Assembly: GCF_003334765.1 (NCBI RefSeq)
Contig: NZ_QOWT01000089.1
DNA: 1,029 nucleotides
Direction: 5' to 3' (one strand)
DNA from: Escherichia coli
GTDB taxonomy: Bacteria; Pseudomonadota; Gammaproteobacteria; Enterobacterales; Enterobacteriaceae
Position numbers and translations under genes: made by a program. Below the pieces are notes generated by a model. It had not been told where the DNA came from. It saw only the letters and a list, made by a program, of their open reading frames with translations, and ran no database searches. The number at the start of each line of letters is the position of its first letter. The first letter of the stretch is position 1. This document shows positions 995 to 1,029 of the stretch, piece by piece.

Positions 995-1029
995 GTAGAT
1001 GATATGACCTTTATATACTCACTATAGCA

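What the first reader, a model, noticed from the sequence alone, without database searches (positions are those of the whole stretch)
995..1029. Abrupt truncation point of the IS66 transposase gene
IS66-like similarity on the - strand fades between ~995 and ~1010, a - strand stop occurs at 1019-1021, and the composition switches to AT-rich (gatgatatgacctttatatactcactatagca). This marks where the rest of the roughly 1.5 kb transposase gene was lost, by deletion or by insertion of another element whose end lies at the window edge.
Basis: inference. Interest (0 to 1): 0.3.

Follow-up and report, generated by a model that had tools for sequence, protein, structure and literature searches.

The report
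ISEc45 insertion splitting an IS66 transposase gene
The IS66 transposase gene is not truncated: a second mobile element, the 1,447-bp IS110-family element ISEc45, sits inside it at window position 997/998, a site this element and its relatives hit repeatedly and probably find with a guide RNA. This is an ordinary, already annotated event.

Summary
IS66 homology on the minus strand stops at window 997/998, in-frame stops follow at 1019-1024, and GC drops from 59% to 31%.

The window is E. coli 042 chromosome 4919188-4920216. Bases 998-1029 are the first 32 bp of a complete 1,447-bp ISEc45, an IS110-family element with a DEDD transposase. It is inserted in the ISEc43 (IS66-family) tnpC gene between codons 475 and 476 (GKKN|YVFFGS).

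- The rest of tnpC resumes 1,447 bp further on, in frame. Removing the insert restores a 537-aa ORF.
- E. coli O104:H4 carries the same locus with the site empty.
- So there is no deletion and no frameshift.

The site is not random. About 96% of E. coli records with an ISEc45 left end have it joined to an IS66 tail. Relatives with 47-72% identical transposases, from Nitrosomonas, sphingomonads, Ralstonia and planctomycetes, sit at the same GRKN|W/Y codon boundary of unrelated IS66 elements.

The 3' non-coding region of ISEc45 folds into a bridge/seekRNA-like loop. One strand of that loop (CACGUAGA) equals window 992-999, and it covaries with the left flank across relatives.

Verdict: a known element in a known kind of targeted insertion. 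Low interest, apart from the IS66-specific targeting by the whole clade.

The parts
1..77 (+). 3' end of a second, 3'-truncated ISEc45 copy (L001 4881-6077). It encodes the last codons of its transposase, with the stop at 72-74. This copy lacks the whole 3' non-coding region and the right end.
   Evidence: Self-BLAST of L001: 4662-6077 matches 6779-8194 at 97.3%. ORF 6-74 ends ...TGFMWDIALAAQSSFSQQKQN, the C-terminus of the ISEc45 Tnp. The sequences diverge at 77/78.
78..623 (+). IS3-family transposase pseudogene fragment (N-terminus missing, internal stop at 474-476)
   Evidence: RefSeq annotation of NC_017626.1; ORF list.
651..722 (.). ~70-bp repeat present in about 2,400 E. coli genomes, ending in ...ACGCTTAC. 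This is probably a leftover terminal piece of another IS66-family element.
   Evidence: The reverse complement GTAAGCGT resembles the IS66 terminal repeat seen at 779. The weak AfaR Rfam hit at 681-721 is far below the gathering score.
779..808 (-). Right terminus of ISEc43 (GTAAGCGTCAACGGAG...) and the short untranslated tail after tnpC
   Evidence: The repeat shared with the other IS66 tail starts exactly at L001 6779. The matching terminus GTAAGCGTAAAGCC lies at the far end, L001 ~10766.
809..997 (-). Codons 476-537 plus the stop of the ISEc43 (IS66-family) transposase gene tnpC, cut off from codons 1-475 by the insertion
992..999 (+). CACGTA|GA: six bases of left target flank plus the first two bases of ISEc45. 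It is identical to an 8-nt strand of the internal loop in ISEc45's own 3' non-coding RNA (L001 8267-8274). This is the proposed site read by the guide RNA on the bottom strand.
   Evidence: The same loop position covaries with the flank in relatives.
997..998 (.). Insertion junction (1-nt ambiguity; could be 996/997). There is no target duplication.
   Evidence: Filled site in 042 compared with the empty site in O104:H4 2011C-3493.
998..1029 (+). First 32 bp of the left end of a complete 1,447-bp ISEc45 (L001 6998-8444). The transposase gene starts 29 bp beyond the window.
   Evidence: Pfam DEDD_Tnp_IS110 plus Transposase_20. NCBIfam NF033542 at 279 bits against a cutoff of 140.
1004..1012 (+). 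Left subterminal inverted repeat ATGACCTTT. Its partner AAAGGTCAT lies at L001 8432-8440. The core ATGACC/GGTCAT is conserved across the clade.
1019..1024 (-). Two stop codons (TGA, TAG) in the IS66 reading frame. They are incidental, because they lie inside the ISEc45 left end.

Best explanation
Window 998-1029 is the left end of a complete 1,447-bp ISEc45, an IS110-family element with an IS1111-like layout. It is inserted, without target duplication, into the tnpC gene of the IS66-family element ISEc43, between codons 475 and 476 (GKKN|YVFFGS). The gene is split, not truncated. Codons 1-475 lie 1,447 bp further on.

The insertion is site-specific. ISEc45 and its relatives recurrently land at this codon boundary of the conserved GRKN|W/Y-L-F-x-G-S motif in many different IS66 elements.

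The most likely mechanism is inferred by homology to ISEc11, ISEc21 and IS621.
- The DEDD recombinase is guided by an RNA from the element's own 253-nt 3' non-coding region.
- One strand of an internal loop of that RNA (AAGAAU) pairs with the top strand of the right flank (RTTYTT).
- The other strand (CACGUA) pairs with the bottom strand of the left flank (window 992-997).
- A circular copy of the element is then recombined in at A997/G998.

Shown here: the insertion, its exact borders, the empty site, the recurrence of the target, and the conserved, covarying RNA loop. Inferred: that the RNA is made, binds the recombinase and directs the reaction.
For: Identity and borders
- The window matches E. 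coli 042 NC_017626.1 at 100%. RefSeq annotates the IS66 fragment, then ISEc45, then 'ISEc43 transposase missing C-terminus'.
- O104:H4 is colinear up to base 997 and again from L001 8444, so 042 carries a 1,447-bp insert.
- Removing it gives an uninterrupted 537-aa TnpC with the full IS66 Pfam architecture.
- The insert encodes a 377-aa protein with PF01548 and PF02371, and it scores above the cutoff for NF033542, 'IS110 family RNA-guided transposase'.

Recurrence in E. coli
- 794 records carry the IS66|ISEc45 junction, against 829 with the first 300 bp of ISEc45.
- Copies with an identical transposase protein and identical guide regions sit in IS66 elements whose flanks differ: CACGTA|ATTTTTC in 042, CAGGTA|GTTTTTGC in L033.
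- Other copies show the left flanks CATGTA and CATAAA.
- One copy lies in a non-IS66 gene with a look-alike site, CTGGTA|GTCTTTTT.

Recurrence outside E. coli
- Relatives with 47-72% identical transposases, in Nitrosomonas, Trabulsiella, Limnoglobus, sphingomonads, Rhodobacteraceae, Ralstonia and Acidobacteria, have the same termini: GATGNNATGACC at the left and TTGACAAAGGTCATAAGA at the right, with minor variants.
- They are flanked by IS66 tnpC split at residue 475|476.

The RNA
- The 3' non-coding regions align.
- RNAalifold predicts a stem that closes an internal loop with a central hairpin.
- Six pairs show compensatory changes, and 95% of cells are paired against at most 60% when the partners are slid.
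- The 3' loop strand follows the left flank. It reads GCCA where the flank is GCCA (L004, L007, L008, L010, L012) or TCCA (L009, one mismatch), GGTA with GGTA (L011), and CGTA with CGTA (ISEc45 in 042).
- The guide complementary to the top strand lies 5' of the one complementary to the bottom strand, which is the order reported for IS1111-type seekRNAs (PMC11187229).
- No sigma-70-like promoter is found in the integrated element.
- A TTGACA sits 12 bp from the right end. It is exact in 8 of 10 aligned relatives, so joining the ends would give TTGACA-N17-TATGAC.
Against: - No experiment on ISEc45 itself was found. Its target and RNA are not described in the text I could search.
- The folding energy of the ISEc45 RNA alone is no better than that of shuffled sequence (z = -0.36).
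- Guide-to-flank matches are short (5-8 nt) and imperfect. The 042 right flank needs one G:T wobble and then a mismatch. Copies with the left flank CATAAA match the CACGUA strand at only 3-4 of 6 positions.
- Covariation rests on three guide states in eight lineages, a 2-versus-6 split that chance alone would give about 1 time in 28.
- The proposed second, donor-binding loop shows no convincing covariation.
- The -10 element of the putative junction promoter lacks the final T.
- The empty site in O104:H4 cannot tell 'never inserted' from 'precisely excised'.
Confidence: 0.9

Rival explanations
1. The IS66 transposase gene was truncated by a deletion that removed its 5' ~1.4 kb.
For: Within the 1,029-bp window alone, homology simply stops at 997. 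A neighbouring IS66 tail (L001 4662-4880) does lack its upstream part.
Against: The missing 475 codons lie 1,447 bp downstream on the same strand and in the same frame. The intervening DNA is a complete IS with both conserved termini. O104:H4 has the uninterrupted junction.
Confidence: 0.01
2. A frameshift or point mutation degraded the gene, so IS66 homology continues just beyond 997 in another frame.
For: In-frame stops at 1019-1024.
Against: tblastn with the restored TnpC finds no IS66 similarity in any frame within the insert (L001 6998-8444), apart from a 4-codon overextension of the left-flank alignment across the junction. That DNA encodes an IS110-family transposase on the opposite strand.
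Confidence: 0.01
3. ISEc45 did insert here, but the recurrent IS66|ISEc45 junction reflects one ancient insertion inherited along with IS66 copies as a composite. It would not then reflect repeated, sequence-directed targeting.
For: The two copies in 042 share both the IS66 tail and the ISEc45 body at similar divergence (96% and 97.5%). That fits duplication or co-inheritance of a composite piece.
Against: - Copies encoding the identical transposase protein (WP_000555401.1) and identical guide regions sit in IS66 elements whose flanks differ strongly (junction identity 84-100%).
- Intact copies of the same IS66 element (ISEc43) exist that match the flank at 100% up to the junction (H30).
- Two insertions lie outside IS66 in look-alike sequences (L035, L010).
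- Distant relatives sit in IS66 elements only 30-47% identical at the protein level.
- The guide strand changes together with the flank.
Confidence: 0.06
4. Targeting is real, but the transposase protein reads the target directly, as classical site-specific recombinases do. The RNA-like loop matches would then be coincidental.
For: Guide matches are short and tolerate mismatches. The single-sequence fold is not significant.
Against: - The family is experimentally RNA-guided (PMC11187229), and NCBIfam names it so.
- The loop architecture is conserved with compensatory changes.
- The variable loop positions track the W (CCA) versus Y (GTA) codon of the flank in eight lineages.
Confidence: 0.05

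Closest known systems
ISEc45 (ISfinder name; IS110 family), as annotated in E. coli 042 and about 880 other complete E. coli genomes
   Same: This is that element. It has a 1,447-bp body and a 377-aa transposase identical to WP_000555401.1. The protein sequence is also listed as ISEc45 in the supplement of PMC11187229.
   Different: Nothing differs in the element itself. I did not find its target (IS66 tnpC, GRKN|W/Y) or its guide RNA described in the searchable literature.
IS1111-type elements with a seekRNA (ISEc11, ISPa11, ISKpn4, ISPst6; Siddiquee et al. 2024, PMC11187229)
   Same: - The long non-coding region lies downstream of tnp.
- It has subterminal inverted repeats with short asymmetric terminal extensions, 7 and 3 nt under one of the two equivalent border placements.
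- It makes no target duplication.
- Two short RNA segments match the two target strands, with the top-strand match 5' of the bottom-strand match.
- A -35 hexamer lies near the right end.
   Different: - The transposase is 377 aa, against 330-350 aa for typical IS1111 members, and is only about 15-24% identical to the other listed transposases.
- The inverted repeat is 9 bp, with a 6-bp conserved core, rather than 11-13 bp.
- The target is a protein-coding motif of another IS, rather than attC, REP or Tn21 ends.
[quoted passage not shown]
   Same: Both are RNA-guided IS110-family elements whose natural target is a conserved coding stretch of another IS family's transposase gene. Inserting there inactivates the host IS.
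   Different: ISEc21 has its non-coding region upstream, its guides in the reverse order, and IS3 rather than IS66 as target.
IS621 bridge RNA
   Same: An internal loop flanked by stems carries two guide strands for the left and right halves of the target. A second loop is flanked by sequences resembling the element's ends.
   Different: IS621's RNA is encoded in the 5' end, and its donor-binding loop is well defined. Here the donor loop is only suggested. No Rfam model matched.

Membership tests
IS66 family transposase gene (tnpC), the interrupted gene | Pfam DDE_Tnp_IS66 catalytic domain plus the zf-IS66, LZ_Tnp_IS66 and IS66_C domains | tested here: met
   The restored 537-aa protein has DDE_Tnp_IS66 at 196-486 (E = 1e-95), IS66_C at 494-530, LZ at 60-130 and zf at 138-182. 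The window fragment alone hits NCBIfam transpos_IS66 at the profile's C-terminal end, below the cutoff because it is a fragment.
IS66 family transposase gene (tnpC), the interrupted gene | tnpA-tnpB-tnpC gene order and GTAAGCG... terminal inverted repeats | tested here: met
   tnpB and an upstream transposase ORF are annotated directly upstream of tnpC. The termini are GTAAGCGTCAACGG at window 779 and GTAAGCGTAAAGCC at L001 ~10766.
IS66 family transposase gene (tnpC), the interrupted gene | 8-bp target-site duplication flanking the element | tested here: not met
   The flanks ...GTAATAGTC and CCATAGAGG... do not match. The region is a patchwork of IS fragments, so the original flanks were probably lost. 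This does not bear on the finding.
IS110 family (ISfinder sense), the inserted element | DEDD (RuvC-like) N-terminal domain PF01548 plus C-terminal PF02371 | tested here: met
   PF01548 at 10-158 (E = 2e-15) and PF02371 at 227-298 (E = 8e-23). NF033542 scores 279 bits against a cutoff of 140.
IS110 family (ISfinder sense), the inserted element | Insertion without target-site duplication, at a specific target sequence | tested here: met
   Comparing filled and empty sites shows only one shared 'A'. The same codon boundary is used in at least 13 different IS66 contexts.
IS1111 subgroup | Subterminal inverted repeats (usually 11-13 bp) with terminal extensions of 7 (or 6) and 3 bp | tested here: inconclusive
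   A perfect 9-bp repeat ATGACCTTT/AAAGGTCAT is present. Extensions are 6 and 4 nt, or 7 and 3 nt, depending on where the ambiguous A is assigned. The repeat is shorter than is typical (criteria from PMC11187229).
IS1111 subgroup | Long non-coding region downstream of tnp | tested here: met
   253 nt lie after the stop codon, against 60 nt before the start.
IS1111 subgroup | Transposase closely related over its full length to IS1111 transposases (330-350 aa) | not tested
   The Tnp is 377 aa. The identity matrix in the supplement of PMC11187229 shows only about 15-24% identity to the other listed transposases. I built no phylogeny.
seekRNA / bridge-RNA-guided recombination | A non-coding RNA with an internal loop whose two strands match the two halves of the target | tested here: met
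   The consensus structure has 6 compensatory pairs. The loop strands AAGAAU and CACGUA match the right and left flanks. The 3' strand covaries with the flank across relatives. This evidence is computational only.
seekRNA / bridge-RNA-guided recombination | A second (donor-binding) loop matching the element's own ends | tested here: inconclusive
   The GGGG...CCCC hairpin is flanked by ..UCAUCA (partly complementary to the left end GATGAT) and AUAAGAG (equal to the right end ATAAGA plus G). Both the ends and these strands are nearly invariant, and the variable left-end positions 5-6 do not covary.
seekRNA / bridge-RNA-guided recombination | [quoted passage not shown] | not testable with these tools
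   There is only indirect support. The integrated copy has no promoter-like site. A TTGACA lies 12 bp from the right end, exact in 8 of 10 aligned relatives.

The most novel reading that the evidence does not exclude
ISEc45 may belong to an old, widely spread clade of RNA-guided IS110/IS1111-type elements, found in Gamma-, Beta- and Alphaproteobacteria, Planctomycetota and Acidobacteria. This clade would be specialised as a 'parasite of a parasite'. Its guide RNA would be tuned to the codons of the conserved GRKN|W/Y-L-F-x-G-S motif of IS66-family transposases, and the guide would be re-tuned (CCA or GTA) as the host motif switches between Trp and Tyr. I found no description of this target, or of this natural guide re-programming series, in the literature I could search.
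Probability: 0.5. Interest if true: 0.4.

Novelty: already known. Interest (0 to 1): 0.22.

Why it matters
For the finding as written, it matters little. It is an annotated IS-within-IS insertion in the IS-rich region upstream of pic in E. coli 042, and it corrects 'truncated gene' to 'split gene'.

The wider pattern is modestly useful.
- It gives a second natural case, after ISEc21 in IS3 elements, of an RNA-guided IS110-family element aimed at the conserved coding core of another transposase family.
- It provides a natural series of guide and target pairs (CGTA, GGTA, GCCA), plus tolerated mismatches and two off-target sites. These could inform the rules for programming seekRNA/bridge-RNA recombinases.
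- It warns annotators that IS66 'C-terminal fragments' lying next to IS110-family genes are usually halves of a split gene.

Tried and rejected
- **Rfam.** An E-value scan of L001 4500-9000 found no bridge-RNA or seekRNA family. It gave only a sub-threshold AfaR match at window 681-721 (27.8 bits against a gathering score of 100), which I treat as chance or an IS66-end remnant.
- **Promoters and terminators.** The sigma-70 promoter and terminator scan of the integrated ISEc45 found none. So I could not assign a promoter inside window 998-1029.
- **Single-sequence fold.** Folding the ISEc45 non-coding RNA alone gave a non-significant z-score. Support for the structure comes only from comparison across relatives.
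- **Donor-binding loop.** I looked for covariation between left-end positions 5-6 (AT, GT, AG, GG) and the strand 5' of the GGGG hairpin, and found none. I left this as inconclusive.
- **Literature.** Searches for ISEc45, 'bridge RNA' plus IS66, and IS110 plus IS66 plus 'target site' found no description of the target. ISEc45 occurs only in sequence and identity tables of the seekRNA paper's supplement.
- **Target-site duplication around ISEc43.** None was found.
- **Deletion and frameshift readings.** Both were considered and rejected.

Full report
**1. What the window is**

The 1,029 bases match the E. coli 042 chromosome (NC_017626.1 4919188-4920216) and eleven other listed complete genomes at 100% over the full length. 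I fetched the surrounding 13 kb as L001, in which window base n is L001 base 6000+n. RefSeq annotates the following features, left to right:
- an ISEc45 (IS110-like) transposase gene ending at window 74;
- an IS3-family pseudogene at 75-623;
- an 'IS66 family transposase, missing N-terminus' at 809-997 on the minus strand;
- a second ISEc45 transposase gene starting 29 bp past the window;
- an 'ISEc43 transposase, missing C-terminus', followed by IS66 tnpB and tnpA.

**2. Checking the observation**

- The minus-strand frame from 997 down to 809 reads YVFFGSDHGGERGALLYGLIGTCRLNGIDPEAYLRHILSVLPEWPSNRVDELLPWNVVLTNK*.
- These 62 residues match the C-terminal end of the NCBIfam IS66 model.
- Upstream of 997 the same frame reads I-I-H-G-K-Y-V and then TGA (1019-1021) and TAG (1022-1024).
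- GC is 58.6% for 841-997 and 31.2% for 998-1029.

The 'fade' is a sharp break at 997/998.

**3. What the break is**

BLAST of the 042 locus against the same locus in O104:H4 2011C-3493 (L002) shows colinearity up to L001 6997 and again from L001 8444. Read base by base:
- the empty site is ...GAACACGTA|ATTTTTCTTTCC...;
- the filled site is ...GAACACGTA|GATGATATGACC...(1,447 bp)...GGTCATAAGA|ATTTTTCTTTCC....

Nothing is duplicated. A single A could belong to either side, so the border is 997/998 or 996/997. Cutting out the 1,447 bp and translating gives one open frame of 537 codons with the complete IS66 TnpC domain set. The break falls exactly between codons 475 and 476 (LGKKN|YVFFGS).

The insert encodes a 377-aa protein with Pfam DEDD_Tnp_IS110 and Transposase_20. 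It scores 279 bits on NCBIfam NF033542, 'IS110 family RNA-guided transposase', against a cutoff of 140. No IS66 similarity exists within the insert in any frame, apart from a 4-codon overextension of the left-flank alignment across the junction.

The gene is therefore split by an IS. It is neither deleted nor frameshifted. The last 32 bases of the window are the left end of ISEc45.

**4. Anatomy of the element**

- Left end: GATGAT, then ATGACCTTT (window 1004-1012).
- Right end: AAAGGTCAT, then AAGA.
- This gives a perfect 9-bp subterminal inverted repeat with short asymmetric extensions.
- The transposase gene is preceded by 60 bp and followed by 253 bp of non-coding DNA.
- This is the IS1111-type layout described by Siddiquee et al. 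(PMC11187229). The repeat is shorter and the protein longer than is typical for that group.

**5. The site is a preferred target**

*In E. coli.* In the 5,426 complete genomes, 829 records hold the first 300 bp of ISEc45 and 794 hold the IS66-tail|ISEc45 junction. These counts take the best place per record at 80% coverage or more. Junction identity ranges from 84% to 100%, which means the IS66 hosts differ. I read five further copies.
- Two of these copies encode the same transposase protein (WP_000555401.1) and the same guide regions as the 042 copy but sit in other contexts: CAGGTA|GTTTTTGCGG in a different IS66 element on a plasmid (L033), and the non-IS66 site described below (L035).
- Other copies have the left flanks CATGTA| and CATAAA|.
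- One lies outside any IS66, near the start of a hypothetical gene, at CTGGTA|GTCTTTTT. That sequence resembles the usual site.
- Records with intact IS66 elements align to the flank up to at most base 997, many stopping at 993-994.

*Outside E. coli.* A scan of one genome per species with the ISEc45 transposase returned 28 loci at 43-99% identity.
- tblastn with the restored TnpC shows IS66 tnpC on one or both sides, broken at residue 475|476. This holds for loci from Nitrosomonas, Trabulsiella, Limnoglobus, Sphingomonadales, Rhodobacteraceae, Novosphingobium, Sphingomonas, Ralstonia and an acidobacterial MAG.
- Translating the flanks gives ...GRKN | W/Y-L/M-F-x-G-S... in every one of these.
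- Two more loci that tblastn had missed, L006 and L009, show the same tail.
- One planctomycete copy (L010) lies in a non-IS66 gene at ...PKN|WL..., again a look-alike.
- The termini are conserved across the clade: GATGNNATGACC and TTGACAAAGGTCATAAGA, with minor variants.

**6. How the target is probably found**

IS110- and IS1111-family recombinases use an RNA from their own non-coding region, with short stretches complementary to the two strands of the target (PMC11187229).

The 3' non-coding regions of ten clade members align well over about 130 nt. RNAalifold predicts a stem that closes an internal loop with a central hairpin, followed by a GGGG...CCCC hairpin. On that structure, 95% of cells are paired, against 33-60% when partners are slid by 1-3 columns. 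Six pairs show compensatory changes, and 0 of 500 shuffles reach the observed covariation score.

The 5' loop strand ends in AAGAAU (L001 8232-8237). It can pair with the top strand of the right flank, RTTYTT, which is the reverse complement of the Lys-Asn codons.

The 3' loop strand is CACGUAGA in ISEc45 (L001 8267-8274), which is identical to window 992-999. Across relatives this strand follows the flank:

| Loop strand | Left flank | Loci |
|---|---|---|
| GCCA | GCCA | L004, L007, L008, L010, L012 |
| GCCA | TCCA (one mismatch) | L009 |
| GGTA | GGTA | L011 |
| CGTA | CGTA | ISEc45 in 042 |

The guide thus tracks whether the host IS66 has Trp (TGG) or Tyr (TAC) after the Asn. The order of the guides, top-strand match 5' of bottom-strand match, is the one reported for IS1111-type seekRNAs.

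Limits of this evidence:
- The matches are short.
- The 042 right flank needs a G:T wobble and then mismatches.
- CATAAA flanks match poorly.
- The ISEc45 RNA alone does not fold better than shuffled sequence.
- The association rests on eight lineages in a 2-versus-6 split.
- The second loop is flanked by UCAUCA-like and AUAAGAG strands that resemble the two ends of the element, but I saw no covariation there.
- No Rfam family matches.

The integrated element has no sigma-70-like promoter. A TTGACA sits 12 bp from the right end, exact in 8 of 10 aligned relatives. Joining the ends would create TTGACA-N17-TATGAC, as described for the circle-junction promoters of ISEc11 and ISEc21. This step is inferred.

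**7. Comparison with what is known**

The element is ISEc45 itself, and its presence here is already annotated. The mechanism is that of the IS110/IS1111 RNA-guided recombinases. [quoted passage not shown]

I did not find the specific target, IS66 tnpC GRKN|W/Y, or the breadth of the clade sharing it, described in the literature I could search. For the finding I therefore rate novelty as 'already known'. The clade-wide IS66 specialisation is the most novel reading that my evidence does not exclude.

**8. Verdict**

- Observation: confirmed.
- Interpretation: partly supported. Insertion is right and deletion is wrong. The element's end is at 998, not at the window edge, and the gene is split, not lost.
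- Interest: low (0.22).

Noticed in passing
window 1-77 (L001 4662-6077): The window also begins inside an ISEc45. A second copy, 97.3% identical, sits 2.1 kb upstream in the same orientation, at the same codon boundary of another IS66 tail (left flank CATAAA). It is cut off 3 bp after its transposase stop codon by the IS3 fragment. It therefore lacks the whole 3' non-coding (guide RNA) region and the right end, and should be immobile.
   Followed up: yes
window 651-722: A ~70-bp piece is present in about 2,400 E. coli genomes and ends in ACGCTTAC, the reverse complement of the IS66 terminal GTAAGCGT. A second ACGCTTAC lies at 730-737. These are probably orphan ends of other IS66-family elements. 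A weak, sub-threshold Rfam AfaR match (27.8 bits against 100) overlaps it at 681-721.
   Followed up: partly
L035 1690-1720 and 3140-3170 (plasmid pUPEC957C-2); L010 1006 and 2469 (planctomycete MAG): Two insertions of clade members lie outside IS66, in sequences that mimic the usual site: CTGGTA|GTCTTTTT, which encodes MLEKD|YQLS, and CAGCCA|GTTCTTCGG, which encodes ..PKN|WLTP. These are natural off-target events and show which positions of the target matter.
   Followed up: partly
L021 985-1015 (gammaproteobacterial MAG): The right end ...GGTCATAAGA is followed directly by GTGGGGATGACC, which looks like another left end. This could be a tandem copy or a captured circle junction.
   Followed up: no
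L001 8301-9869 (minus strand): The 5' part of the split tnpC stays open for 47 codons into the right end of ISEc45. That gives a 522-aa hybrid ORF: TnpC residues 1-475 plus a foreign tail. It lacks the last residues of the DDE_Tnp_IS66 domain and the whole IS66_C domain.
   Followed up: no
L002 6997-7387 (O104:H4 2011C-3493): In O104:H4 the ISEc45 site in ISEc43 is empty, but the same tnpC is cut about 390 bp further on, next to an IS100 (IS21-family) istA gene. The same IS66 copy has thus been hit by different elements in different lineages. Whether the empty site is ancestral or the result of precise excision cannot be told.
   Followed up: no
L003 (contig JAIJJM010000012.1, labelled Collinsella sp. 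MAG): A 99%-identical ISEc45 transposase gene occurs on a contig binned as the actinobacterium Collinsella. This may be mis-binned enterobacterial DNA rather than true presence.
   Followed up: no
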